In this document: piece after piece, positions 24,498-54,281 of the stretch
How the letters are laid out: each line of letters starts with the position of its first letter
How positions within the stretch are numbered: position 1 is the stretch's first letter
Assembly (NCBI GenBank): GCA_001003605.1
Contig: LCPL01000001.1
Location: 7,976 to 71,975 of the forward strand
Length of the DNA stretch: 64,000 bases
Direction of reading: 5' to 3'
Origin: Parcubacteria group bacterium GW2011_GWC2_48_17
GTDB lineage: Bacteria > Patescibacteriota > Minisyncoccia > Phycocordibacterales > UBA10002
The notes under the pieces: model-generated
Database searches by the model: none
What the model was told of the DNA's origin: nothing
What the model saw: the letters and a program-made list of their open reading frames with translations, nothing else
Program-made: the position numbers and the translations under genes

Positions 24498-25157
24498 ATG
24501 ATTATTACCCATTTTGGCGGAGAATTTATCAAAGTGCAATTTGGCGACGTGGTGTTCGCGTTCAATCCGCCTTCCCGCGACTCGAAACTAAAAACCGCGC
24601 GTTTTGGAGCCGATATCGCACTCATAAGCGCGAACCACCCGGATTTTAACGGGGTAGACATCGTGACTCACGGCGACCATAGACCGTTTGTCATTTCCGG
24701 TCCCGGAGAGTATGAAATAAGAGGCATCGTTGTTCGAGGTTTTGCCACCGAGTCCGATTACGGAACGGATGGGAAGAGTAAGCGCATAAACACCGTCTAC
24801 ACGGTAGCGCTTGAGGGAATGAAGCTCTGTTTCCTCGGAGCGCTTTCCTCCGGCGAACTTCCCGACGTCTTGAAGGAAGAGCTGGATGAGATAGATATTT
24901 TGTTCATCCCAATCGGCTCTATCGGCGTTCTATCTCCTTCTTCGGCAAACAAGCTCGCGGTTGCCCTCGAGCCGCGTCTTGTCATTCCAATCCATTTTGC
25001 TGGCATTGGGGATAAGAACGCACTCAAACAGTTTTTAAAAGAATCCGGTGAGGAGAATTCGTCATCTTCCGGACGAGCGTTGGACAAGCTGACGCTCAAG
25101 AAGAAGGACCTTGAAGGGAAAGAAGGCGAAGTCGTAGTACTAGCTGCTAGCTTCTAG
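24498..25157 (+). CDS. MBL-fold metallo-hydrolase (UPF0173-like)
   Basis: MIITHFGGEFIKVQFGDVVFAFNPP...DIALISANHPDF...IPIH resembles small MBL-fold hydrolases. The start was moved to Met 24498 because the upstream part of the ORF is repeat-derived. Confidence 0.45.
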   Translation: MIITHFGGEFIKVQFGDVVFAFNPPSRDSKLKTARFGADIALISANHPDFNGVDIVTHGDHRPFVISGPGEYEIRGIVVRGFATESDYGTDGKSKRINTVYTVALEGMKLCFLGALSSGELPDVLKEELDEIDILFIPIGSIGVLSPSSANKLAVALEPRLVIPIHFAGIGDKNALKQFLKESGEENSSSSGRALDKLTLKKKDLEGKEGEVVVLAASF

Positions 25158-25228
25158 CTGTCAGGTTCTAGTATGGCGGATGAGGTCCTTCCTAGAAGCT
25201 AAAACCTAAAACCTAAAACCTAGAACCT

Positions 25229-28502: not shown

Positions 28503-29027
28503 ATGTTCTCCGACCCCTCACAATGCATTGAACAATTTGACCTCCAAAGCGGCTCGCGCGTGGCCGACCTTGGCGCGGGCACCGGCGCGTTCGCGATTGC
28601 CGCTGCAAAAGCGGTGGGCGAGGCCGGCAAGATTTACGCCGTAGAAGTACAGAAGGGCCTTTTGGAGCGGCTCAAAAGCGAGGCCCGCGCGGCGCGCGCG
28701 CATAATGTGGAGGCGCTGTGGGGAGACATTGAACGCGTGCAGGGTACACACCTCAAAGACGCCTCCATTGACGCCGCCGTTGCGTCAAATGTGCTGTTTC
28801 AGGTTGAAGATAAAAACGGTTTTGTAACGGAAACGAAACGTATATTAAAACCAGGCGGCAAAGCGCTTCTCATAGACTGGACGGATTCTTGGAATGGTAT
28901 GGGTCCGCACAAGACCCAGGTAGTCACCGAAAACGCCGCTCGCGAGCTTTTTGAAAAGGCCGGCTTTCAGTTCGTAAAGAAAATCGACGCCGGAGAGCAC
29001 CACTATGGGTTAGTATTTAGAAAGTAG
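28503..29027 (+). CDS. Class I SAM-dependent methyltransferase
   Basis: VADLGAGTGAFAI (motif I) ... KPGGKALLIDW (post-I/II). Confidence 0.6.
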   Translation: MFSDPSQCIEQFDLQSGSRVADLGAGTGAFAIAAAKAVGEAGKIYAVEVQKGLLERLKSEARAARAHNVEALWGDIERVQGTHLKDASIDAAVASNVLFQVEDKNGFVTETKRILKPGGKALLIDWTDSWNGMGPHKTQVVTENAARELFEKAGFQFVKKIDAGEHHYGLVFRK

Positions 29028-29050
29028 AGGGTAGGTGGTAGAAAAAGACA

Positions 29051-29401
29051 ATGAAGGAATGGAATTACAAGAATCTTATTGTGTGGCAGAAGGCAATTGA
29101 TGTGGCCGTAAAAGTCTATCGTCTCACTGACACTTTCCCCAAAAACGAACAATACGGACTGATGTCTCAAATTCGCAGAGTAGCGTCCTCAATTTCAGCA
29201 AATATCGCGGAAGGTAGTCGGAGAAAAGGACCGAAAGACAGAGTCCATTTTTTTGTCATGGCGTATGGTTCTGGGGCTGAATTAGAATCCCACTTGGAAT
29301 TAGCTAAGCGTCTTTCGTTAGTATCTGAAGAGTCCCTAAAAGAAATGCCGGCGCTTTTAGACGAGGTGATGAAAATGTTAAACCGTCTCACCAGTGTATA
29401 A
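29051..29401 (+). CDS. Four-helix-bundle protein (23S rRNA intervening-sequence protein family, the same family as DGR Avd), copy 1
   Basis: KNLIVWQKAIDVAVKVYRLTDTFPKNEQYGLMSQIRRVASSISANIAEG...GSGAELESHLELAKRL is the canonical family signature. Confidence 0.75.
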   Translation: MKEWNYKNLIVWQKAIDVAVKVYRLTDTFPKNEQYGLMSQIRRVASSISANIAEGSRRKGPKDRVHFFVMAYGSGAELESHLELAKRLSLVSEESLKEMPALLDEVMKMLNRLTSV

Positions 29402-29476
29402 TTTTTAACCTGCTTGGGTTATACTTGAGTCGTTTCTCTTGCTACCTTCTACCCTCTACTTTCTACCTTCTAAACC

Positions 29477-31584: not shown

Positions 31585-32007
31585 ATGTCTTTCATTGAAA
31601 AAGTGTGCCATTCGTTTAGCAAAGTACCACAAATGGCAGTGCATCTGGGCTGGGGCGCTTTTCTCATGCTCTTTCTCACGCCGCAATCAGCCTTTGCGAC
31701 ACCATGTCCCGAAGGAAGACTCTGCAATCCCATCAACTTTCCCAATCTTACCGCGTTCCTGCTTGAAATTGTAAATATAGCAATCCAGTACGGCGCGCTC
31801 CTTATCGTATTTTTCATCGTCTTCGCCGGTTTTAAATTCGTTACGGCGCAAGGGAACAGCGAGAAGGTGAGTGAGGCGAGAAAAATGTTTACGTGGATTG
31901 TTGTCGGCGCCTTCGTGCTTCTTGGCGTCTATGTGATTAAGGCCGCCATCTGCGGCTCCATAGAACAGCTTGGGGTCACGAACGCGTGCGGATTGACTTC
32001 GCAATGA
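31585..32007 (+). CDS. Secreted two-TM pilin-like protein, paralog 2
   Basis: ...ALLIVFFIVFAGFKFVTAQGNSEKVSEARKMFTWIVVGAFVLLGVYVI... is the same helix / charged-loop / helix core. Confidence 0.45.
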   Translation: MSFIEKVCHSFSKVPQMAVHLGWGAFLMLFLTPQSAFATPCPEGRLCNPINFPNLTAFLLEIVNIAIQYGALLIVFFIVFAGFKFVTAQGNSEKVSEARKMFTWIVVGAFVLLGVYVIKAAICGSIEQLGVTNACGLTSQ

Positions 32008-32026
32008 AAGCAGTACTTAGTAGTTA

Positions 32027-32182
32027 GTAGTAGAGGACTTACGCGGTTGACTGAATTCTCCCTTAATAAAGGGAGCACTGCCGCCTTCGGCAGGAGGGAT
32101 GTTACAACCCCCGCCTCGCCGACTCGGCACCCCCTTTACTAAGGGGGACACACTTCGACCGGATTCCAAACGCGTAAGTCCT
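32027..32182. mobile_element. MITE-like element, copy B (TIR AGGACTTACGCG), with a hairpin-rich interior
   Basis: aggacttacgcg at 32027 and cgcgtaagtcct at 32171-32182. The interior has ctcccttaataaagggag and cccccctttactaaggggg stem-loops, and is related to 37640-37870. Confidence 0.5.
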
Positions 32183-32209
32183 AAGTAGTAGATTAATAGA
32201 CAAAGCAAA

Positions 32210-32593
32210 TTGATGAAAACTATAAGCCACAAAACAAATAGATTTTCTTTGCTACCCTCTACCTTCTACCTTCTACCATCTGCTTTCTTCTACCTTCTAC
32301 CTTCTGTTTCCCTTGCCAACGACTCCATCAAAATCTTTGATACTCCCAATAAGCTCACGTTCACAGACCTCGCGGGGCGGCTTGCAGGCGTTGGGAATAC
32401 AATCATAACCTTTCTCGTCGGCGTTGCTCTCGTTCTTTTGATTTGGGGCGCTTTCAAGTACATCCGTGCCGCCGGCGACTCGGAAAAGCTTGCCGAGGGA
32501 CGTCGAGTGGCCGTCTATGGCATCATTGCCTTGTTTCTAATGCTTTCTTTCTGGGGATTTGTTATGATTATCAAGAAGAGCTTGTTCGGGTAA
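32210..32593 (+). CDS. Secreted two-TM pilin-like protein, paralog 3. Its N-terminal hydrophobic region is encoded by CTACCTTC repeats.
   Basis: ...TFLVGVALVLLIWGAFKYIRAAGDSEKLAEGRRVAVYGIIALFLMLSFWGFVMII. There is no in-frame alternative start downstream of the repeat region. Confidence 0.45.
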   Translation: MMKTISHKTNRFSLLPSTFYLLPSAFFYLLPSVSLANDSIKIFDTPNKLTFTDLAGRLAGVGNTIITFLVGVALVLLIWGAFKYIRAAGDSEKLAEGRRVAVYGIIALFLMLSFWGFVMIIKKSLFG

Positions 32594-32659
32594 TACCAAT
32601 CTGCGAATGTGAACCAATCTACGAATACCTGCTAATAAAACCTACTAATAAACACGCCA

Positions 32660-33130
32660 ATGGCTAGACAAATTTTCTCAATGCTCCTCATAACGCTGAT
32701 GTTGCTGTCTGGAATGATGATGTTTGCGACTCCCACGTTCGCGATATTGTGCGCCTACACGGACGGCGGCACGGTTGAGGTACCTGGGACAGTGTGTCCT
32801 GATGGAAGCACACCTGTTGGCGATCCATCTGGTGACGGCGGCAGTCAAATAACCACCTTCGCTGGTTTGCTAAAACACATCAACGCACTTCTCAACCTCG
32901 TTGTTCCGTTCCTCGTGGGTCTGGCTGTTTTTGTTATAATCTACGGAGTCTTCAAGTACGTTTTCCACGCGGCAGATGAGGAGAAGCGGACGGAAGCAAG
33001 ACTCTTCATCGTCTGGGGAGTAATCGGCGTCTTCTTCATGCTCTCCATTTGGGGGCTCGTGAATATCCTTGTCAACACCGTTCCTCTGCAAAAAAAGCCG
33101 CCGAAGGTGGAGTCGGTGTTTCCTAAGTAA
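32660..33130 (+). CDS. Secreted two-TM pilin-like protein, paralog 4
   Basis: Signal peptide and a Cys-containing N-domain. Core: ITTFAGLL...VPFLVGLAVFVIIYGVFKYVFHAADEEKRTEARLFIVWGVIGVFFMLSIWGLVNIL. Confidence 0.5.
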   Translation: MARQIFSMLLITLMLLSGMMMFATPTFAILCAYTDGGTVEVPGTVCPDGSTPVGDPSGDGGSQITTFAGLLKHINALLNLVVPFLVGLAVFVIIYGVFKYVFHAADEEKRTEARLFIVWGVIGVFFMLSIWGLVNILVNTVPLQKKPPKVESVFPK

Positions 33131-33178
33131 ATACCAATATACGAATGGGAACCAATCTACGAATACCTGCGAATAAGA

Positions 33179-33312
33179 TAGGACTTACGCATTTCGTCAT
33201 TTTCTGTCATTCCCGCGCAGGCGGGAATCCATGCCTTGAAATAACACTCTGGATTCCCGTTCCCCGCCTTCGCGAGGACAAGCTTCACGGGAATGACACC
33301 AAATACGACTTT
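33179..33312. mobile_element. MITE-like element, copy C (left TIR TAGGACTTACGC, degenerate right end)
   Basis: taggacttacgcattt at 33179. The interior has gtcattcccgcgcaggcgggaatcc and ctggattcccg cores homologous to copy A. The ORF-track ORF 33145..33339 is the translation of this repeat. Confidence 0.45.
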
Positions 33313-33335
33313 TTAGAAGCTAATTTCTTAACCTC

Positions 33336-33905
33336 ATGAAGAAAACATACGCGTTTGCGGCAATCTTTGTGTTACTTTTCGTTCTGTCCGCTTCTTTACT
33401 GCCCGGTATTACATTTGCGAACCATGTGTGTATCGGCGATCCTAATTGGGACGAGGACAATGATTTTGCCGAAGGCCATGCTTGTGTCCCGGCCAGCAAT
33501 AGCGGCGGTGGCGGCAAAATAACCACCTTTGAAGGTTTGCTCGGCAAACTAAGTTCGGCCGTCAACTCGCTCGTGCCGTTCATAATAGGACTCGCGGTTT
33601 TTGTCATTATCTGGGGGATTTTTAACTACATCGTGCGTGCCGCAGATGAGGAGAAACGGGCGGATGCGAAAAAGTACATTATCTGGGGAATCGTTGGGTT
33701 GTTTTTTATGCTCTCCATCTGGGGCTTCGTGAACATCCTCTTAAACAGCATCAACCTTGATAGGACCATCAAGACAAGCGATATTCCAAGAGTTCCAAGC
33801 ATTGGCGGGATAGACGGGACAGATGGCGGCACCCCCAGCGGACGGGACAATGGAAGAGATGGCACAGATGACTGTGATCCATCTATTAAGGATTGTCAGC
33901 AATAA
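33336..33905 (+). CDS. Secreted two-TM pilin-like protein, paralog 5, with a G/D-rich C-terminal tail
   Basis: KITTFEGLLGKLSSAVNSLVPFIIGLAVFVIIWGIFNYIVRAADEEKRADAKKYIIWGIVGLFFMLSIWGFVNILLNSINL, then GGIDGTDGGTPSGRDNGRDGTDDCDPS. Confidence 0.5.
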   Translation: MKKTYAFAAIFVLLFVLSASLLPGITFANHVCIGDPNWDEDNDFAEGHACVPASNSGGGGKITTFEGLLGKLSSAVNSLVPFIIGLAVFVIIWGIFNYIVRAADEEKRADAKKYIIWGIVGLFFMLSIWGFVNILLNSINLDRTIKTSDIPRVPSIGGIDGTDGGTPSGRDNGRDGTDDCDPSIKDCQQ

Positions 33906-33924
33906 TTATGAGTGTACCGCCACT

Positions 33925-34281
33925 ATGTTGTTTAGCATAGGAAAGAAAAACACAGCTCTCATTTGGTACGGCCTTCTTTATTTTTTTCTCGCGCCACTCA
34001 CTTTGTTCGCGCAGTCTACTGACCTGCCGAAAGACGCAACCGAGCTCCTCAACCGCATAAGCACATTCATCATAAACCCCATCATCTATCTCCTTTTCGC
34101 CGCCGCGTTTGTAATTTTCGTTTGGGGACTCGTGCAATTCGTGGCGCATCTTGACAACGAAGAGGCGAGAAGCACGGGGGGTAAGCACATGATTTGGGGC
34201 ATCATCGGCATGGTCATCATGGTCAGCGTCAACGGAATAATCTACATAATCCAAAACACCATTCTTCAGCTGGGAAGCTGA
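33925..34281 (+). CDS. Two-TM pilin-like protein, paralog 6 (divergent)
   Basis: Start moved to Met 33925 (the 33823 start overlaps paralog 5). ...IIYLLFAAAFVIFVWGLVQFVAHLDNEEARSTGGKHMIWGIIGMVIMVSVNGIIYII. Confidence 0.4.
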   Translation: MLFSIGKKNTALIWYGLLYFFLAPLTLFAQSTDLPKDATELLNRISTFIINPIIYLLFAAAFVIFVWGLVQFVAHLDNEEARSTGGKHMIWGIIGMVIMVSVNGIIYIIQNTILQLGS

Positions 34282-34338
34282 AGAATAGCTGCTAGCTGTT
34301 AGGTGCTAGGTTCTAGGAAGGAAAAAGAAAAGAAATAG

Positions 34339-34638
34339 ATGCATGAAAGCCGAAAACTAACCGCTTCTGCCCTGCCTTTGACCGATAACGCCACTAATGC
34401 TAGCATAAGAACCATGAATACAATCGTTTTGAAAACAGCTGAATATCAAGAACTAAAGACCCGCGCTGATGCATACGATAGGTTGGTATTTGCCGTGCGT
34501 GAAGAGATTTTTTCGCCACCTCCGACCCGAAACCGCGCCAAGATTATTTCTGAATTAAAAAAGACAAAACGCTATAACAATAAATTTCTTGAGAGTCTCG
34601 CTCGCGGTTTGAAGCGTTCGTCGTATTTCACCTCATAG
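34339..34638 (+). CDS. Putative antitoxin partner of the RelE/ParE toxin (assigned by position only)
   Basis: 99-aa ORF ending 8 nt before the RelE-like toxin gene. No motif recognised. Confidence 0.35.
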   Translation: MHESRKLTASALPLTDNATNASIRTMNTIVLKTAEYQELKTRADAYDRLVFAVREEIFSPPPTRNRAKIISELKKTKRYNNKFLESLARGLKRSSYFTS

Positions 34639-34645
34639 ATTTTCC

Positions 34646-34894
34646 ATGAAAATACTCCCGCTTCATTCGGAAATCGTCCGGTATATTAAAGCGCGAGGTT
34701 TGCTAAAACGGTTTGAAAAGCAGTCAAGACTTTTCGTCGCTAATTTAAATCATCCGAGTCTTGAAATGGGATTGCTTGAACCAAGGCATTTGCGCATTTT
34801 TAGTTTTCGCCTCAACCGGAAGTACCGAGCGATTTTCATTTTTCAAGACAGGGAGACGATTGAGGTGATTGATATCAATAATCACTACCAATAA
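34646..34894 (+). CDS. RelE/ParE-family type II toxin
   Basis: ...HPSLEMGLLEPRHLRIFSFRLNRKYRAIFIFQDRETIEVIDINNHY matches the RelE/ParE C-terminal pattern (HP.L....L.....s.R+...YR.i....+..i.v..I..H). Confidence 0.6.
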   Translation: MKILPLHSEIVRYIKARGLLKRFEKQSRLFVANLNHPSLEMGLLEPRHLRIFSFRLNRKYRAIFIFQDRETIEVIDINNHYQ

Positions 34895-35025
34895 GAAGAA
34901 TAGCTGCTGGCTGTCCGGCGCTAGGTTCTAGCCGGATAAAGGAGAGGAAGATAGCTTCTAGCTGCTAGGTTCTAGCTTTTAGGAAAGAAATCGAAAAACA
35001 ACTTCTAGATAAGCGCCACACATGT

Positions 35026-35394
35026 ATGACTATCACAAAATCCTACAAAGACCTGATTGTGTGGCAAAAAGGAGTTGAACTTTCCGTGCTTGTATATGAA
35101 CTGACTGAAAAGTTTCCCAATGAAGAGAGATATGCGCTTACTTCACAAATGAGACGAGCTGCCGTTTCCATTCCATCAAATATAGCCGAAGGGCGTTGTA
35201 GAAGTACAAAAAAGGATTTTTGCCAGTTTCTGCATATTGCCCTCGGTTCTGCGGCAGAGCTTGAAACACAAATAGAAATTGCAAAGCGAATATCAAAGAC
35301 CTCCAATATCTCATATACAACCATAGAAGCCCTGCTTACCGAAGTTATGAAAATGCTCAATGCTCTTATCTCCAAACTAGAAGCCAATGCCTGA
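35026..35394 (+). CDS. Four-helix-bundle protein (IVS/Avd family), copy 2
   Basis: KDLIVWQKGVELSVLVYELTEKFPNEERYALTSQMRRAAVSIPSNIAEG...LGSAAELETQIEIAKRI. Confidence 0.75.
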   Translation: MTITKSYKDLIVWQKGVELSVLVYELTEKFPNEERYALTSQMRRAAVSIPSNIAEGRCRSTKKDFCQFLHIALGSAAELETQIEIAKRISKTSNISYTTIEALLTEVMKMLNALISKLEANA

Positions 35395-35563
35395 CAGCGC
35401 CAGCACCTTCTCTCGATTCTGCTTCTTCTAGAACCTAGCAGCTAACACCTATCCCTTGCTATCCACACCCCCCCCTTGCGCGTGCGGGAATATAGGATAG
35501 AATAGTGCGTATTAATAGGATTTTCCAAATAGGTCGTATTACTAATTATTTTATAAGTGCTTT

Positions 35564-35989
35564 ATGACTACATTGAAGAAAATTGTCCTTGCGGTCTCTG
35601 CGTATGCTTTGCCGCTGGCCGCGTTTGCACAGGCAGAGGTAGGTAATCTTACTGACCTGTTTATCACAATAAACGGGATTATCAACACCATTATTCCGTT
35701 TCTCGTCGGAATCGCCGTCTTTATCATCATCTGGGGCGTCTTCACCTACATTGCCGGCGCGGGAGACGAGGAGAAGCGGGCGCAGGCGAAGTCGTTCATC
35801 GTCTGGGGTGTTGTCGGCGTGTTTATCATGCTCTCCATCTGGGGGCTCGTGAACATCCTCGCCAACAGCATAAATCTCAAAAAAGACCCGCTTTCACAAG
35901 ATGACCTTCCGACATTTGACTTTGATTTCGGGCAGGACGTTGGCCCTGGCCCTGGCCCTGGTCCCGGCCCTGGCGATGAACAACAGTAA
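35564..35989 (+). CDS. Secreted two-TM pilin-like protein, paralog 7, ending in a (GP)n tail
   Basis: Signal peptide. IIPFLVGIAVFIIIWGVFTYIAGAGDEEKRAQAKSFIVWGVVGVFIMLSIWGLVNILANSINL. C-terminal GPGPGPGPGPG. Confidence 0.5.
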   Translation: MTTLKKIVLAVSAYALPLAAFAQAEVGNLTDLFITINGIINTIIPFLVGIAVFIIIWGVFTYIAGAGDEEKRAQAKSFIVWGVVGVFIMLSIWGLVNILANSINLKKDPLSQDDLPTFDFDFGQDVGPGPGPGPGPGDEQQ

Positions 35990-43069: not shown

Positions 43070-43495
43070 TTAAACTTTATTTTTTAGATAGGTGTCAATC
43101 TGGATGAGGTACATTTTGAAATCAGAGAAATTACACTTAAGATTATTCAAGAACAAATCCTTGTCCAGTTTTTCGTATCGGTGGACAAGCATATTTCGTA
43201 CGCCGACAATCGGCGCAATCTTGCCCGCGAAATCTTTTTCCAATACGCCGAAATCTCCGAGCATCCTAAAAGTGCCTTGTAAATCATCAACCGTTCCGAA
43301 ATCGCTCGCTGTGATAAGGTGAGTGTTAATGTCAACCATGGTGTCTACCGCCTTCTGAAAGTAGCGTTCCAGCGCAGGAAGTCTCATGTCATCGTTTTTA
43401 ATGACCTCAATGGGAGTTTCCATGAGCTTTTCAATTTTGCCCACGCTCTCCGAGAGCATATCCATTTTCTTTTGTATGAAGACTTTATCCAACAT
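43070..43495 (-). CDS. HepT-like (DUF86/HEPN) toxin of a HepT/MntA toxin-antitoxin pair
   Basis: Rx4HxY motif (GVRNMLVHRY). About 140 aa. It overlaps the 3' end of the upstream nucleotidyltransferase gene by 11 nt. Confidence 0.55.
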   Translation of the reverse strand: MLDKVFIQKKMDMLSESVGKIEKLMETPIEVIKNDDMRLPALERYFQKAVDTMVDINTHLITASDFGTVDDLQGTFRMLGDFGVLEKDFAGKIAPIVGVRNMLVHRYEKLDKDLFLNNLKCNFSDFKMYLIQIDTYLKNKV

Positions 43496-43937
43496 ATTTG
43501 TATTCGCTTATTCTTCGCTTCAGGTATTCCTCCCTAAGCCTGAACAGCGGTTCCGCCTCTTCATATGTCCTTAAGGCATACAAGAGCATATCGTCAAACA
43601 GGTGCGGGGTTTTTTCGTATAACACTTTTGCGTTTTGAACAATTTGCTTCAGAAGCAACGGCGGGGCTTTTCTGAAATTAACCGTGGAGACCTTGTCGTT
43701 TTTAAACACTTCAGTCAAATCAGTGTTTAACGACACCTCATCCTCAAACGACATCTTGTTTTCTGACAAAAACGCCACATCAACATCACTTTCTTTGTGC
43801 GTAAATCCGGTTGCCTGCGAGCCGAATAGCACCACAAGGGAGAAGTGATAGCGTACGGCGATTTCCGCAATTCTATTTTTGTCTATCTTTATCATGCGCT
43901 TACTATACCATAAAAATGTTCGACAGGCGATTATCAC
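43485..43937 (-). CDS. MntA-like minimal nucleotidyltransferase (antitoxin partner of HepT)
   Basis: LFGSQATGFTHKESDVDVAFL is the GSx9-13DxD nucleotidyltransferase motif. Confidence 0.55.
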   Translation of the reverse strand: MIIACRTFLWYSKRMIKIDKNRIAEIAVRYHFSLVVLFGSQATGFTHKESDVDVAFLSENKMSFEDEVSLNTDLTEVFKNDKVSTVNFRKAPPLLLKQIVQNAKVLYEKTPHLFDDMLLYALRTYEEAEPLFRLREEYLKRRISEYKYVG

Positions 43938-44076
43938 TTCTCAATTCATACTTCATAATTCATTCTGCTATGCTATAGTGCTAGAATGTTGAGTTGCTAG
44001 GTGTCAGCTGTCAGGTTCTAGTCGGAATCTTTTCTTTTTTACTAAACGCTATACGCTAACCGCTAACCGCTTCCCT

Positions 44077-45090: not shown

Positions 45091-45199
45091 AATAGCAGGT
45101 AGATGATAGAAAGTAGAAGGTCAAAATAGATTGTAGAAGGTAGATGGTAGAAGGTAAGAAGAAACAGTCTACTAGCTACTTTCTACCAACTAATTTTTT

Positions 45200-45865: not shown

Positions 45866-46038
45866 ACAAGGCGGTATGGTATTATATTGTGAAATATCGG
45901 ATACCAATGCAAAATAAATCTCGAATACCAAATATCGAATATCTAAAAATACCAAATACCAAATGTTAAAACAGAGGAAATCTCAAATTGTGGTTTCTTG
46001 TTTCGGTATTCGGTATTCGGGATTAGATATTTAATCGT

Positions 46039-46590: not shown

Positions 46591-46694
46591 GAAACTTGAA
46601 ATTTCTACCATTGACCTTTGACCATTAACAATTGACAGACTTCTTTTTAACGTCACATGTCACATGTCAATTGTCACCTGTTAATTGTTGATTT

Positions 46695-47810
46695 ATGACT
46701 CTAGTTTTATTTCTCATCATTCTCGGTGCGCTCATCTTCGTGCATGAGCTCGGACACTTTATCTCCGCGAAAAAAGCCGGAATTCGCGTTGATGAATTCG
46801 CGCTTGGATTTCCGCCGAGGGTACTTGGAAAGAAAATAGGAGAGACAGAGTACAACCTCAATCTCATTCCATTTGGAGGATATGTGAAAATCTTTGGCGA
46901 AGACGGCGACGAAGACGCAGATAAACGCGGATTAGGAACGCAGATAAGCGCGGATAAAGAAAGACGCTTCACCTCAAAACCTCGGTGGGTGCAGGGAATA
47001 GTCCTTGCTTCCGGCGTCCTCGGCAATATAGTTTTCGCGTGGCTACTTGTGTCGATAGGCTTCATGTCGGGTGTTCCATCGGCAATCAACGGGCGATACG
47101 CCGCTGACGTGCGAAATCTCGAGCTTATGGTCACTTCAGTACTCCCGGACTCTCCGGCTTATACAGCAGGGCTTCATTCCGGCGATGTAATCACAGCAAT
47201 CGAGGAAAACGGTAATCGATTTGAAGGCACCGATGCGACAGTGGCAGGAAACTTTATCGGCGCCAGTACGGATAAGCTATCCGTCTTTTACAAACGCGGA
47301 AAAGAAGCTGGAAGCGTAGTCGTACTGCCGAAAGATGGAATTGTGGAGGGGAAACACGCCATAGGGGTTGGCCTAGACACTATAGGTGAAGTGCGCTTCG
47401 GCTTTTTCCGAGCTTTTTTTGAAGGAGCTCTAATGACATGGGACATTACTCGCGAAGTCACTGTGGGCCTAGTCGGATTTTTGAAACAAGCCGTCACTTT
47501 GCAAGCGGACTTAAATTCCATTACCGGCCCCTTGGGTATTGCGGGACTCGTTGGGGAGGCGCGCGTTTTAGGAGTCATCTATCTTCTGTCTTTCACCGCA
47601 TTTATCTCCATTAACCTCGCTGTCATCAATCTTCTGCCAATTCCGGCGCTAGACGGAGGTCGTCTTCTCTTTTTAGCGATTGAAGGCATCACCCGAAGAT
47701 CAATCCCCGCAAAGTTAACTCGAACAGTAAATACGGCCGGCTTCATACTCCTCATTCTCTTTATGGTTTTTATTACATATCGGGATATTGTGAAATTAGT
47801 TAGTAGCTAG
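46695..47810 (+). CDS. rseP: RIP site-2 zinc metalloprotease RseP-like (M50 with PDZ)
   Basis: VHELGHF (HExxH). C-terminal NLLPIPALDGG. Confidence 0.75.
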   Translation: MTLVLFLIILGALIFVHELGHFISAKKAGIRVDEFALGFPPRVLGKKIGETEYNLNLIPFGGYVKIFGEDGDEDADKRGLGTQISADKERRFTSKPRWVQGIVLASGVLGNIVFAWLLVSIGFMSGVPSAINGRYAADVRNLELMVTSVLPDSPAYTAGLHSGDVITAIEENGNRFEGTDATVAGNFIGASTDKLSVFYKRGKEAGSVVVLPKDGIVEGKHAIGVGLDTIGEVRFGFFRAFFEGALMTWDITREVTVGLVGFLKQAVTLQADLNSITGPLGIAGLVGEARVLGVIYLLSFTAFISINLAVINLLPIPALDGGRLLFLAIEGITRRSIPAKLTRTVNTAGFILLILFMVFITYRDIVKLVSS

Positions 47811-47895
47811 TAGCAAGTAGAAAGTAGAAAGTAGCGTGCTACTATTTTCTTATCCGTAATTCGTATATCGGTACTTATTTGTACTCCGTAAACCT

Positions 47896-52414: not shown

Positions 52415-54133
52415 ATGCTACAAAGATTTCTTAAATTGTTTAGTTCACGTAGAGTCGCTCTGCATGGGAAGAAGGAAATCAATCCTGATGAGATATTTCT
52501 TGATTCTAGCAATCTGCCGCAGTTTGACAGGCACCAATTCGAGGGCCGCCTTGAGCGTCCTATAGCTCGCCGCACCATTTTCATTTTAGGTGGCGTATTT
52601 TGCTTGGCAATGCTTCTGGTTCTCTCAAAGACCTTTTCACTTCAAATAATGGAAGGAGACCGGTACGCAAATCAAAGCGCGCAAAATCGCCTGCGCCACA
52701 GCCTGATTTTTGGCTCGCGCGGCGTGTTCTATGACAGGAACGGAACATTACTCGCATGGAATGTCATTGATGACGCTAAACCTGAATTTTCGAAGCGCAA
52801 ATATCTGGAGCAAAATGGACTGTCGCACGTCGTAGGATTTATAAAATATCCTTCAAAGGATAAAGCAGGGTTCTATTATAAAGTTGATTTTGAAGGACTT
52901 GATGGAGCGGAAAAGTATTACAACGAATATGTCGCGCCGCAACATGGAATCAGAATCGTTGAAACAGACGCTCATGGGAATATTCAGTCGGAGAGCGTGT
53001 TAAAGCCGCCAAAAGATGGAGCAAACATTACTCTAACTATCGACGCGCGCCTTCAGAGTAAGCTTCACGAGTTAATGGAAGGTCTAGCGAAGGAACGCGG
53101 TTTCAACGGAGGCGCCGCAGTCATAATGGATGTTCAAAACGGCGAGCTTCTCACCATGGTGAGCTTTCCAGAGTACGATTCACAAGTTCTTACCGATGGT
53201 AGCGATGAAGACGCCATAAAAAAGACGCTTGCTGACCCAAAGACTCCATTCCTCAATCGAGCTACAAGCGGACTATACGCGCCAGGCTCTATCGTTAAGC
53301 CGTTCATAGCACTTGCTGCGTTGGAAGAGGGAATAATAACGCCAGAGAAGGAGATAGTAAGCACAGGCAAGATATCAGTTCCGAACCCATTCGACCCGAG
53401 CAAGCCGAGTGTTTTTAAAGATTGGAAAGCGCACGGCGCTGTTGATATGCGCAAAGCATTGGCAGTTTCATCCGACATATATTTCTACGAAATAGGCGGG
53501 GGGTTCGAAGAACAAAAAGGACTTGGTATCGGGAGCATCGAAAAGTATATGCGTCTATTCGGCTTCGGCGAGGAGCCAGGAGGAAACGATTTCTTTGGTG
53601 AAGCCGGAGTCATCCCAAATCCCAAGTGGAAACGCGCGAATTTTAACGGTGAAGCGTGGAATCTTGGCAATACCTACCATACGTCGATTGGGCAATATGG
53701 ATTTCAGGTAACTCCCTTGCAGGTGGCGCGCGGAGTTGCCGCGATTGCGAATGGCGGAAAGCTTTTAGAACCTCGGCTTGTAGAGGAAAAAGAAATTCCG
53801 CCGTCATATGCGGTGATTCCTATCAAAACTTCCTCTTTCGGGGTTGTGAAAGAAGGTATGCTTGGCGCCGTAACTTTAGGTGGCACGGCAAGTGGACTTT
53901 CCATTCCCAACATAAGCGTTGCCGGAAAGACTGGAACAGCGGAGCTAGGAACCTTAAAAAAACTAGTCAACTCATGGGTAGTGGGATTCTTTCCATATGA
54001 AAAACCTGCGTTTGCGTTTGCAATCATAATGGAAAAAGGCCCGCGTGATAACACCATAGGCGCGACTTTTGTGGCTAGGCAGCTATTCGAGTGGATGAGC
54101 GTGTATACGCCGGAATACCTGCGGAGTCAGTAA
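52415..54133 (+). CDS. mrdA: Penicillin-binding protein 2 (elongasome transpeptidase)
   Basis: SxxK (GSIVKPF), SxD/N (VSSDIYF), KTGTA. N-terminal TM. Lies in the mreBCD block. Confidence 0.75.
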   Translation: MLQRFLKLFSSRRVALHGKKEINPDEIFLDSSNLPQFDRHQFEGRLERPIARRTIFILGGVFCLAMLLVLSKTFSLQIMEGDRYANQSAQNRLRHSLIFGSRGVFYDRNGTLLAWNVIDDAKPEFSKRKYLEQNGLSHVVGFIKYPSKDKAGFYYKVDFEGLDGAEKYYNEYVAPQHGIRIVETDAHGNIQSESVLKPPKDGANITLTIDARLQSKLHELMEGLAKERGFNGGAAVIMDVQNGELLTMVSFPEYDSQVLTDGSDEDAIKKTLADPKTPFLNRATSGLYAPGSIVKPFIALAALEEGIITPEKEIVSTGKISVPNPFDPSKPSVFKDWKAHGAVDMRKALAVSSDIYFYEIGGGFEEQKGLGIGSIEKYMRLFGFGEEPGGNDFFGEAGVIPNPKWKRANFNGEAWNLGNTYHTSIGQYGFQVTPLQVARGVAAIANGGKLLEPRLVEEKEIPPSYAVIPIKTSSFGVVKEGMLGAVTLGGTASGLSIPNISVAGKTGTAELGTLKKLVNSWVVGFFPYEKPAFAFAIIMEKGPRDNTIGATFVARQLFEWMSVYTPEYLRSQ

Positions 54134-54281
54134 GTAGCAAGTAGAAAGTAGCAAGTAGCAAGCAGGCAGTATCGAATTTTCTTTTTCTACCTTCTACCCT
54201 CTACTGTCTACCTTCTGCTTGTGCGTTGACTTACTCTCAAAAACCCGCTACAATCTTGAGGTTTAGCAAATCTAACGAATA

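What the first reader, a model, noticed from the sequence alone, without database searches (positions are those of the whole stretch)
34259..34940. RelE/ParE toxin-antitoxin pair flanked by ~40-nt direct repeats (cassette-like insertion)
ctgaagaatagctgctagctgttaggtgctaggttctagg at ~34259-34300 matches taagaagaatagctgctggctgtccggcgctaggttctagcc at ~34893-34935. These two immediately bracket the antitoxin/RelE pair (34339..34894). A third partial copy lies at ~34950-34985 and an inverted copy at ~35408-35440. This is the signature of a small mobilised cassette, or a site-specific recombination target, rather than ordinary intergenic DNA.
Basis: seen in the sequence. Interest (0 to 1): 0.5.

Follow-up and report, generated by a model that had tools for sequence, protein, structure and literature searches.

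The report
Toxin-antitoxin insert inside heptamer-repeat gene cassette
The repeats are real: a small toxin-antitoxin operon was inserted, with a ~55-base duplication of its target, into the TAG-every-7-bases repeat array that forms the end of a neighbouring four-helix-bundle ("23S rRNA intervening-sequence protein") gene cassette. Gene cassettes bracketed by inverted heptamer arrays turn out to be widespread, and I found no description of them.

Summary
**Observation: confirmed.** Four copies of a ~40-nt repeat lie at 34280-34334 (A), 34895-34949 (B), 34946-35000 (C) and, inverted, 35406-35453 (D). The 12-nt core occurs 4 times against 0.14 expected.

**What the repeat is.** It is an array of five TAGs spaced 7 nt apart.
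- C and D are the inverted termini of a cassette carrying a PF05635 four-helix-bundle (4HB) gene, 35026..35394.
- A second such cassette lies at 29011-29472.
- Of 72 related 4HB genes in other genomes, 75% have this upstream TAG array, against 2% of neighbouring genes.
- 54% have matching inverted flanks, against 4.6% (p=3e-21).
- Cultured cyanobacteria show the same layout with other heptamer units.

**The toxin-antitoxin (TA) pair.** It is a YoeB/RelE-type operon with its own conserved promoter, and it sits between A and B.
- A relative (L185) has the same pilin-4HB-pilin locus with one array and no TA. This is the empty site.
- The TA family is flanked by direct repeats of local sequence (18-207 nt) in 28% of loci, against 1.4% of controls.

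**Verdict.** "Cassette-like insertion" holds. "Site-specific recombination target" does not.

**Mechanism (inferred, not shown).** The arrays may pair in RNA like the RNase III stem of 23S rRNA intervening sequences. How either module moves is unknown.

The parts
33926..34281 (+). T4SS-type pilin gene 'pilin5', the fifth of six tandem paralogs. Its TGA stop (34279-34281) overlaps the first base of repeat copy A. The start is uncertain (33823 or 33926).
   Evidence: PF18895 T4SS_pilin E=8.5e-9. NCBI calls a 118-aa product (L002).
34280..34334 (+). Repeat copy A: five TAGs at 7-nt spacing (34286, 34293, 34300, 34307, 34314) plus a purine-rich tail. It is the upstream copy of the duplication that flanks the TA module.
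   Evidence: It aligns with the single array of the empty site in L185.
34335..34413 (+). Leader of the TA module. 34335-34376 has no homology in other TA loci. 34378-34406 is a promoter-like TTGACC-17-TGcTAGCAT.
   Evidence: Promoter scan. The two hexamers and the TG are conserved in four TA loci from different contexts, and homology between TA loci begins at ~34377.
34414..34638 (+). Antitoxin candidate, 74 aa. The 99-aa ORF from 34339 is probably too long.
   Evidence: An upstream ORF of 73-77 aa (one of 83) ends next to the toxin start in 79 of 89 related loci. No Pfam or NCBIfam match.
34646..34894 (+). Toxin, 82 aa, RelE/YoeB/HigB superfamily.
   Evidence: Pfam HigB-like E=1.9e-4 and ParE E=0.013, both below cut-off. 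170 homologs, many with precomputed PF05015 or PF06769. Family profile vs PDB YoeB 7v5y E=5.3e-5. C-terminal N-N-H-Y is invariant.
34895..34949 (+). Repeat copy B, the downstream copy of the duplication. It is decaying: TAG, TGG, CCG, TAG, TAG.
   Evidence: It is absent from the empty site in L185.
34946..35000 (+). Repeat copy C, the left terminal array of the 4HB cassette: five TAGs at 34952, 34959, 34966, 34973, 34980 plus a purine-rich tail.
   Evidence: Similarity to the 4HB cassettes of L012 and L013, which sit in other contexts, starts exactly at AATAGCTTCTAG.
35026..35394 (+). Four-helix-bundle protein gene (23S rRNA intervening-sequence protein family), 122 aa.
   Evidence: PF05635 E=1.7e-39. 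NCBIfam NF008911 144 bits (cut-off 137) and TIGR02436 E=2.7e-38. PDB 2GSC E=4e-26.
35406..35453 (-). Repeat copy D, the right terminal array of the 4HB cassette, inverted: CTA at 35428, 35435, 35442, 35449, preceded by a pyrimidine-rich tail.
   Evidence: Inverted repeats I1 and I2. Predicted to pair with C in the RNA fold of 34940-35465, z=-3.1. The right boundary CTAGAACCTAT is shared with L011, L012 and L013.
35564..35989 (+). T4SS-type pilin gene 'pilin6', the downstream host gene.
   Evidence: PF18895 E=2e-9. 72% identical to L185 and 67% to L182 at the orthologous position.
29011..29472 (+). Second 4HB cassette. Five TAGs at exact 7-nt spacing (29011-29041); the third is the stop codon of the upstream methyltransferase gene. 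ORF 29051..29401 (116 aa). Five CTAs at exact 7-nt spacing (29442-29472), 5 nt before the ATG of the next gene.
   Evidence: PF05635 E=6e-37. Sequence. 53% identical to the first 4HB protein.
25140..25228 (.). ORF-less inverted pair of the same CTAG-type arrays (25140-25172 and 25190-25228). It overlaps the stop codon of an MBL-fold gene.
43990..44071 (.). Another ORF-less pair: a TAG-type array at 43990-44018 and a CTA-type array at 44042-44071, upstream of mreB.

Best explanation
Two independent small accessory modules are nested between two pilin genes of a Candidatus Taylorbacteria (CPR) genome.

**Module 1: the 4HB cassette (34946-35453).** A PF05635 gene is bracketed by inverted arrays of about five TAG-containing heptamers (copies C and D). 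The unit array-gene-inverted array recurs with the same boundaries in unrelated genomic contexts, so it behaves as a discrete, movable cassette. It usually sits co-directionally right at the stop codon of a host gene.

**Module 2: the TA operon (about 34377-34894).** This is a YoeB/RelE-type toxin-antitoxin operon with its own promoter. It was inserted just behind the pilin stop codon, into the left-array region of the cassette. The insertion came with a ~55-nt duplication of the target, which gives the direct repeats A and B. B has since decayed.

**Shown here:**
- the anatomy of the locus;
- the duplication flanking the TA operon;
- the empty site in L185;
- the statistical association of arrays with 4HB genes, and of direct repeats with this TA family.

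**Inferred:**
- In a read-through transcript the two arrays pair into a long stem around the 4HB ORF, like the RNase III-cleaved stem of ORF-bearing 23S rRNA intervening sequences.
- TAGs at period 7 stop translation in all three frames. This makes insertion at gene ends harmless.
- The TA operon is kept by addiction. It entered by a recombination or repair event that duplicates local sequence, not by a dedicated recombinase.
For: **Repeat anatomy.**

**Gene identities.**

**4HB cassettes in 80 other loci (72 testable).**
- An upstream chain of at least 3 TAGs at 7-8 nt spacing is present in 75%, against 2% of 283 neighbouring genes. The modal chain length is 5 TAGs.
- An inverted-repeat score of at least 12.5 is reached by 54%, against 4.6% (Fisher p=3e-21).
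- Direct-repeat scores stay at background.
- The arms are TAG-heptamer arrays.

**Same unit, different contexts.**
- Window, L012 and L013 share the left boundary AATAGCTTCTAG.
- Window, L011, L012 and L013 share the right boundary CTAGAACCTAT.
- Flanking genes are unrelated.
- The host stop codon is one of the array TAGs in 28 of 53 loci.

**Cultured strains.** Complete plasmids of Nostoc, Geminocystis, Stanieria and Gemmatirosa carry 4HB genes between inverted heptamer arrays of other units.

**RNA fold.** In the predicted fold of 34940-35465, C pairs with D (z=-3.1).

**TA module.**
- It occurs in different contexts, such as rpsR-efp and after metK.
- Flanking direct repeats of local sequence occur in 21 of 75 loci, against 4 of 277 controls (Fisher p=4e-12).
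- The promoter is conserved, and homology ends at the toxin stop.

**Orthologous-locus series.**
- L185: pilin-array-array-4HB-pilin, no TA.
- L182: pilin-arrays-pilin, neither module.
- L180 and L181: same arrangement as the window.

**Independence of the modules.** TA and 4HB never co-occur in 89 TA loci or 80 4HB loci.
Against: - No enzyme or mechanism for moving either module was identified.
- RNA pairing is only predicted. Mismatches between arms favour sense-strand G-U pairs 19 to 10, which is not significant. Several ORF-less array pairs fold no better than shuffled sequence.
- The empty site comes from a diverged relative (pilin5 70% aa identity). Loss of the TA by recombination between A and B would give the same picture as gain.
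- The arrays are duplication-prone on their own. L185 has two tandem left arrays without a TA, and L181 has a duplicated D. Part of the A/B/C triplication could therefore predate the TA.
- 72% of TA loci show no flanking direct repeat.
- Most comparative data are metagenome assemblies. The 80 4HB loci were selected for similarity to the window protein (45-87% identity in all but one hit).
Confidence: 0.72

Rival explanations
1. A and B are pre-existing tandem copies of a slippage-prone or duplication-prone heptamer array, and the TA operon simply landed between them. The direct repeats would then not be a product of the insertion.
For: - L185 has two tandem left arrays with no TA.
- L181 has a tandem duplication of D.
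- About 25 period-7 arrays lie scattered through the window.
Against: - The L185 alignment shows one array fewer exactly where the TA is missing.
- The TA family is flanked by direct repeats of non-array sequence (efp or metK 3' ends) far more often than control segments.
Confidence: 0.15
2. Integron-like or other site-specific cassette system: the ~40-nt repeat is an attachment site recognised by a recombinase that mobilises the TA pair.
For: Direct repeats immediately bracket the TA pair. TA pairs are known cargo of chromosomal integrons (general knowledge).
Against: - No integrase or recombinase is among the called genes within +/-10 kb.
- Repeats flanking the same TA family elsewhere are unrelated local sequences of 18-207 nt.
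- The repeat is instead tied to 4HB genes.
- None of 89 TA loci has a 4HB gene nearby.
Confidence: 0.04
3. The arrays are operator or 5'-UTR binding sites. The pentameric 4HB protein binds five UAG/TAG repeats, rather as TRAP binds GAG/UAG triplets, and regulates itself and adjacent genes. Copy A would then put the TA operon under the same control. This is compatible with the cassette reading.
For: - The modal number of upstream TAGs is 5 (25 of 72).
- A, C and both arrays of the second cassette have exactly five.
- The two PDB relatives, 2GSC and 2RLD, are each listed with 5 chains in a single entry.
- Only TAG and the spacing are conserved; the spacers vary.
Against: - There is no significant link between protein divergence and spacer composition (Mantel r=0.12, p=0.07).
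- The cyanobacterial units lack TAG.
- ORF-less arrays with many different units exist in one genome.
- No binding data exist.
Confidence: 0.15
4. Remnant of a diversity-generating retroelement: the 4HB gene is an Avd, and the repeats are template or variable repeat fragments.
For: Weak bAvd and DivGenRetAVD similarity.
Against: - Scores are far below cut-off (34.4 against 80 bits).
- No reverse transcriptase lies within +/-10 kb.
- The repeats are simple heptamer arrays, not coding template/variable repeat pairs.
Confidence: 0.01

Closest known systems
ORF-bearing intervening sequences (IVS) of 23S rRNA (Leptospira; Coxiella burnetii S23p IVS; PMC4990558)
   Same: Both are elements of ~430-760 nt that carry a PF05635/S23p four-helix-bundle ORF between terminal inverted repeats of ~26-28 nt. 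The repeats can form a stem; in Coxiella RNase III cleaves that stem. The window cassette is 34946-35453 (508 nt).
   Different: The window cassette is not in rRNA. It lies between protein-coding genes, and none of 80 related loci has an LSU rRNA match. Its termini are arrays of TAG heptamers. Whether rRNA IVS termini are also heptamer arrays could not be checked. Cleavage is untested.
Intergenic heptanucleotide repeat arrays (TAACTGA repeats of Beggiatoaceae, Cyanobacteria and Bacteroidetes, PMC4679880; cyanobacterial STRR, from general knowledge)
   Same: Both are short tandem arrays of 2-6 or more heptamers in intergenic DNA, oriented with respect to genes. They often overlap the upstream stop codon and give stop codons in all three frames.
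   Different: Here the arrays come as inverted pairs around a specific gene family. The conserved part is TAG plus the period, not a fixed heptamer. That paper does not mention 4HB/S23 genes.
Type II toxin-antitoxin modules of the YoeB/RelE/HigB superfamily
   Same: The antitoxin-then-toxin operon has a 7-nt gap and its own promoter. The 82-aa toxin matches YoeB structures and has a C-terminal H-Y. The module shows high horizontal mobility (PMC2701414).
   Different: The antitoxin matches no known family. The flanking direct repeats of local sequence with variable length (18-207 nt) are not a described property, as far as my searches went.
MITEs, REPINs and other small non-autonomous elements with terminal inverted repeats
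   Same: Both have terminal inverted repeats, ORF-less derivatives dispersed in intergenic DNA, and no transposase inside.
   Different: Array units differ from locus to locus, so they are not copies of one master sequence. No target-site duplication is seen at the 4HB cassette ends. No partner enzyme such as a RAYT is known.
Avd of diversity-generating retroelements
   Same: Homologous four-helix-bundle fold and family (PF22296 weak hit).
   Different: There is no reverse transcriptase and no template/variable repeats. The score is well below the Avd cut-off.

Membership tests
Type II TA, RelE/YoeB/HigB toxin superfamily | Toxin matches a RelE-fold family model | tested here: inconclusive
   Pfam HigB-like 22.3 bits against a cut-off of 27, and ParE 16.5 against 23. 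NCBIfam Txe/YoeB 14.6 against 51.8. However, a family profile hits PDB YoeB at E=5e-5, and many homologs carry PF05015 or PF06769.
Type II TA, RelE/YoeB/HigB toxin superfamily | Small antitoxin gene immediately upstream, co-directional, conserved as a pair | tested here: met
   The 74-aa ORF ends 7 nt before the toxin start. An equivalent ORF is present in 79 of 89 related loci. A conserved promoter precedes it.
Type II TA, RelE/YoeB/HigB toxin superfamily | Toxicity and neutralisation by the antitoxin | not testable with these tools
   Needs expression experiments.
Integron gene cassette | attC-type recombination site and an IntI integrase nearby | tested here: not met
   No integrase is among the genes within +/-10 kb. 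The repeats are heptamer arrays. Repeats at other TA loci are unrelated local sequence.
ORF-bearing 23S rRNA intervening sequence | PF05635 (S23p) ORF | tested here: met
   E=1.7e-39.
ORF-bearing 23S rRNA intervening sequence | Terminal inverted repeats able to form a stem around the ORF | tested here: met
   C and D are 26 nt and 88% complementary. They pair in the predicted fold.
ORF-bearing 23S rRNA intervening sequence | Located inside helix 25 or 45 of a 23S rRNA gene | tested here: not met
   No Rfam match in 33800-35700. The flanks are pilin genes. No LSU rRNA match in 80 related loci.
ORF-bearing 23S rRNA intervening sequence | Excision by RNase III | not testable with these tools
   Needs transcript end mapping or an in vitro assay.
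DGR accessory protein Avd | Score above the Avd model cut-off, with an adjacent reverse transcriptase and TR/VR | tested here: not met
   34.4 bits against a cut-off of 80. No reverse transcriptase within +/-10 kb.
Heptanucleotide tandem repeat arrays (STRR/TAACTGA-like) | Tandem period-7 arrays in intergenic DNA | tested here: met
   TRF reports period 7 at 34286-34317, 34952-34982 and about 20 further sites.
Transposon/MITE | Fixed-length target-site duplication and a cognate transposase | tested here: not met
   No duplication is visible at the 4HB cassette junctions. TA flanking repeats vary from 18 to 207 nt. There is no transposase in the module.

The most novel reading that the evidence does not exclude
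PF05635 four-helix-bundle genes, and probably GxxExxY genes, together with their inverted heptamer arrays form a widespread and so far unrecognised class of self-contained cassettes. 23S rRNA intervening sequences would be only the special case that was noticed first. In this reading the pentameric protein recognises its own roughly five-fold array, as RNA or DNA. The many ORF-less inverted heptamer arrays, including cyanobacterial STRR-type repeats, would be the ORF-less derivatives or landing sites of these cassettes.
Probability: 0.2. Interest if true: 0.85.

Novelty: new variant of a known kind. Interest (0 to 1): 0.6.

Why it matters
Taken alone, the TA pair is an ordinary mobile addiction module. 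It is, however, caught with an empty site and with a variable-length target duplication. That duplication recurs across the family and hints at a recombinase-free way in which TA operons spread.

The larger point is the repeat itself. It links three poorly understood things:
- the function-unknown four-helix-bundle "IVS protein" family, which is homologous to DGR Avd;
- the ORF-bearing intervening sequences of 23S rRNA;
- the unexplained excess of intergenic heptamer repeats in bacteria.

If 4HB genes generally travel with inverted heptamer arrays, two questions become testable. One is what these proteins bind. The other is where heptamer arrays come from. Both could be addressed with simple binding and transcript-mapping experiments, and genome annotation could flag such cassettes.

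Tried and rejected
- **Exact-protein look-up of the toxin.** It returned only the same organism with identical synteny, so it gave no empty site. I found the empty site instead through pilin5 homologs.
- **Folding A, or B+C, alone as RNA.** The result is no better than shuffled sequence (z about 0). The copies are not stand-alone hairpins or terminators.
- **Strand-asymmetry test for G-U pairs in the cassette arms.** 19 against 10, not significant.
- **Mantel test of 4HB protein distance against array spacer composition.** r=0.12, p=0.07. No clear cognate specificity.
- **Functional linkage of TA and 4HB.** Rejected: zero co-occurrence in 89 and 80 loci.
- **DGR and integron readings.** Rejected.
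- **Rfam.** Nothing in 33800-35700. No LSU rRNA in the 80 4HB loci, so I could not compare genuine rRNA IVS termini.
- **Literature searches.** I found no paper linking heptamer arrays with PF05635 genes, and none on direct repeats flanking TA operons. The library covers open-access papers only.
- **The L091 repeat.** The perfect 100-nt repeat in L091 overlaps the place where the antitoxin should be. It may be an assembly artefact, so I did not rely on it.
Full report
**1. The observation**

The repeat is real.
- Copy A is 34280-34317. It begins within the TGA stop of the upstream gene.
- Copy B is 34895-34932. It begins right after the TAA stop of the toxin ORF.
- A and B are identical at 33 of 38 positions. 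The similarity runs on through a purine-rich tail to 55 nt at 78%.
- Copy C (34946-35000) lies 51 nt after B.
- Copy D (core 35428-35453) is inverted. It is 88% complementary to C and 92% to A.

The 12-nt core GCTAGGTTCTAG occurs four times exactly, all within this 1.2-kb stretch. The expectation is 0.14 per 64 kb. Otherwise the description holds.

**2. What the genes are**

- The window is a Candidatus Taylorbacteria (Patescibacteria/CPR) contig from Rifle groundwater.
- The region lies inside a tandem array of six PF18895 T4SS-type pilin genes, 31585-35989.
- ORF 34646..34894 (82 aa) is a RelE-superfamily toxin:
  - it is sub-threshold for Pfam HigB and ParE;
  - it has 170 homologs, many carrying PF05015 or PF06769;
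  - the family profile hits YoeB crystal structures at E=5e-5;
  - it has an invariant C-terminal N-N-H-Y.
- The partner ORF is best read as 34414..34638 (74 aa). An ORF of that size precedes the toxin in 79 of 89 related loci. It matches no family.
- ORF 35026..35394 is a four-helix-bundle (4HB) protein of the "23S rRNA intervening-sequence protein" family: PF05635 E=1.7e-39, TIGR02436, PDB 2GSC.

**3. What the repeat is**

Each copy is a heptamer array.
- A and C each have five TAGs at exactly 7-nt spacing.
- D has four CTAs.
- B has TAG, TGG, CCG, TAG, TAG, so it is a decaying copy.

Tandem Repeats Finder reports about 25 period-7 arrays in the window. Nearly all are at gene boundaries. Their units differ, and they often form inverted pairs.

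A second 4HB gene (29051..29401, PF05635 E=6e-37) is bracketed in the same way. Five TAGs lie at 29011-29041, and the third is the stop codon of the upstream gene. Five CTAs lie at 29442-29472, ending 5 nt before the next gene's ATG.

ORF-less inverted pairs lie at:
- 25140-25228
- 43990-44071
- 45093-45186
- 45917-46031
- 54132-54216

Some of these fold well as RNA (z=-4.1 and -4.7), others do not.

**4. The arrays belong to the 4HB gene**

I fetched 80 loci with 4HB homologs from species-representative genomes. Most are CPR.

| Measure (72 testable genes vs 283 neighbouring genes) | 4HB genes | Neighbours |
|---|---|---|
| Upstream chain of at least 3 TAGs at 7-8 nt spacing | 75% | 2% |
| Downstream inverted chain of at least 3 | 36% | 4% |
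| Local alignment of upstream flank to reverse-complemented downstream flank, score at least 12.5 | 54% | 4.6% |

- The modal upstream chain length is 5 TAGs.
- The inverted-repeat enrichment has odds ratio 25 and Fisher p=3e-21.
- Direct-repeat scores stay at background.
- The effect is orientation-specific, and it is specific to TAG among all 64 trinucleotides.

The closest relatives of the window's 4HB gene (L011-L013, 82-87% aa identity) sit in unrelated contexts. For example, L012 lies next to jag/yidC/rnpA. DNA similarity nevertheless starts exactly at AATAGCTTCTAG (window, L012, L013) and ends exactly at CTAGAACCTAT (window, L011-L013). The unit array-ORF-inverted array is therefore a discrete cassette found in different places.

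In 53 of 54 array-bearing loci a co-directional host ORF ends in the flank. In 28 of these its stop codon is one of the array's TAGs.

Two GxxExxY genes (TIGR04256) in these loci are likewise flanked by inverted arrays of other short units.

Seven 4HB genes on complete plasmids of cultured organisms all have a heptamer array beside them, and four have clear inverted pairs:
- Nostoc edaphicum: (TAGGGAG)n / (CTCCCTA)n
- Geminocystis: (AAGGGAA)n
- Stanieria and Gemmatirosa: (AGGGCAG)n / (CTGCCCT)n

The period and the inverted layout are therefore general. The TAG is not.

**5. The TA operon is a separate insertion with a target duplication**

The same TA family sits in many contexts, for example between rpsR and efp, and after metK.

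Homology between TA loci starts at a conserved promoter (TTGAC-17-TGnTAnnAT, window 34378-34406) and ends at the toxin stop.

In 21 of 75 loci (17 of 61 distinct contexts) the operon is flanked by significant direct repeats. For same-length segments displaced within the same loci the figure is 4 of 277 (Fisher p=4e-12).
- The repeats are local sequence of 18-207 nt, mostly the last part of an adjacent gene.
- The downstream copy usually starts 0-13 nt after the toxin stop.

The orthologous locus exists in three states:

| Locus | Arrangement | Identity to window |
|---|---|---|
| L182 | pilin5 - arrays - pilin6, neither module | pilin5 80% over 81% of the query, pilin6 67% |
| L185 | pilin5 - array - array - 4HB - inverted array - pilin6, no TA | pilin5 70%, 4HB 64%, pilin6 72% |
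| window, L180, L181 | pilin5 - A - TA - B - C - 4HB - D - pilin6 | n/a |

The TA and the 4HB gene never co-occur elsewhere. Their adjacency here is incidental.

**6. How it most likely works**

*Shown:* the anatomy, the duplication, the empty site and the associations above.

*Inferred for the 4HB cassette:*
- It sits co-directionally at the very end of a host gene, so it is probably transcribed by read-through.
- Its arrays are predicted to pair and enclose the ORF. This is the layout of the S23p-bearing IVS of Coxiella and Leptospira, whose terminal stem is cut by RNase III.
- TAGs at period 7 put a stop in every frame. Any host ORF that runs into the cassette therefore ends within 21 nt. 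The inverted array does the same for the opposite strand. MacGregor made the same point for TAACTGA repeats.
- This cannot be the whole story, because the cyanobacterial units have no stop codons.
- A binding role for the pentameric protein is attractive, given five repeats and five chains listed for each of 2GSC and 2RLD. It is untested, and the Mantel test gave no support.

*Inferred for the TA operon:*
- It is maintained by addiction.
- The variable length and local origin of the repeats argue against a transposase or a site-specific recombinase. They point to a repair-mediated or homology-anchored recombination event that duplicates the target.
- Gain and loss by recombination between A and B cannot be told apart with these data.

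**7. Comparison with what is known, and novelty**

- The TA pair is a new member of a known kind.
- The 4HB cassette works like an ORF-bearing rRNA IVS. It fails the defining location test: it is not in rRNA, and none of the 80 related loci has an LSU rRNA match.
- Its termini are heptamer arrays. In the searchable literature I found no link between heptamer arrays and this gene family.
- I therefore rate it a new variant of a known kind.

**8. Caveats**

- Most comparative loci are metagenome assemblies, and repeats are assembly-prone.
- Taxon labels of some non-CPR genomes may be wrong.
- The 4HB sample is biased towards relatives of the window protein.
- The cultured sample is small (n=7).
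- No mechanism of movement has been shown for either module.

Noticed in passing
window 29011-29472: A second 4HB (PF05635) cassette with perfectly regular arrays: five TAGs and five CTAs at exact 7-nt spacing. The third TAG is the stop codon of the upstream methyltransferase gene, and the next gene's ATG follows the last CTA by 5 nt.
   Followed up: yes
window 25140-25228; 43990-44071; 45093-45186; 45917-46031; 46607-46688; 47802-47835; 54132-54216: ORF-less heptamer arrays sit at gene boundaries, mostly as inverted pairs with a short loop. Each pair has its own unit (CTAGNNN, GTAGNNN, AAATACC, GTCACAT and others). Two pairs fold far better than shuffles (z=-4.1, -4.7); others do not.
   Followed up: partly
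window 32252-32305, inside ORF 32210..32593: A (CTTCTAC)n heptamer array is read as the hydrophobic signal-peptide region (LLPSTFYLLPSAFFYLLPS) of a pilin paralog. An array seems to have been taken over as coding sequence.
   Followed up: no
window 32033-32180 and 33182-33310: MITE-like insertions lie in pilin-pilin spacers. One is bounded by GGACTTACGCG / CGCGTAAGTCC. The other carries a GTCATTCCCGCGCAGGCGGGAATCC-type hairpin.
   Followed up: no
L180, L181 vs window 33926-35560: Strain variants have a TA-4HB segment that is virtually identical to the window, yet their pilin5 proteins are only 89% and 81% identical. Either the pilins diversify very fast or the segment was recently exchanged. 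L181 also has a tandem duplication of the right array D.
   Followed up: partly
L040 4148-4555; L089 879-1271: GxxExxY family genes (TIGR04256) are flanked by inverted short-period arrays of other units (for example AACAGAA / TTCTGTT). This suggests the same cassette layout for a second small-protein family.
   Followed up: partly
L094 2094-2246 and 2832-3398; L091 2270-2369 and 2760-2859; L097 2203-2229 and 2758-2784: In other genomes the same TA operon is flanked by duplicated 3' ends of efp (141 nt diverged; 100 nt perfect) or of metK (27 nt). The perfect L091 repeat overlaps the expected antitoxin position and may be an assembly artefact.
   Followed up: partly
L015, L029, L037, L044, L084, L011 and others (7 of 72 loci): 4HB cassettes repeatedly lie directly upstream of a PrgI-like gene (M.FQVPQFI...). 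As in the window, this places them in T4SS/pilin neighbourhoods of CPR genomes.
   Followed up: partly
L191 (Pseudanabaena galeata plasmid, between cas6 and cas4); L186 (Nostoc edaphicum, between nrdB and nrdA): Cyanobacterial 4HB genes are wedged between genes of one functional cluster and flanked by long heptamer arrays, 17 and about 10 copies in L191. In L191 both arrays have the same orientation.
   Followed up: no
window 34258-34289: An 11-bp perfect palindrome (ATTCTTCAGCT GGGA AGCTGAAGAAT) spans the pilin5 stop codon and the first bases of copy A. Copy B lacks it.
   Followed up: no
window 43070-43937 (- strand): A second, unrelated TA-like pair (HepT-like / nucleotidyltransferase). Heptamer arrays lie just beyond its start.
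   Followed up: no
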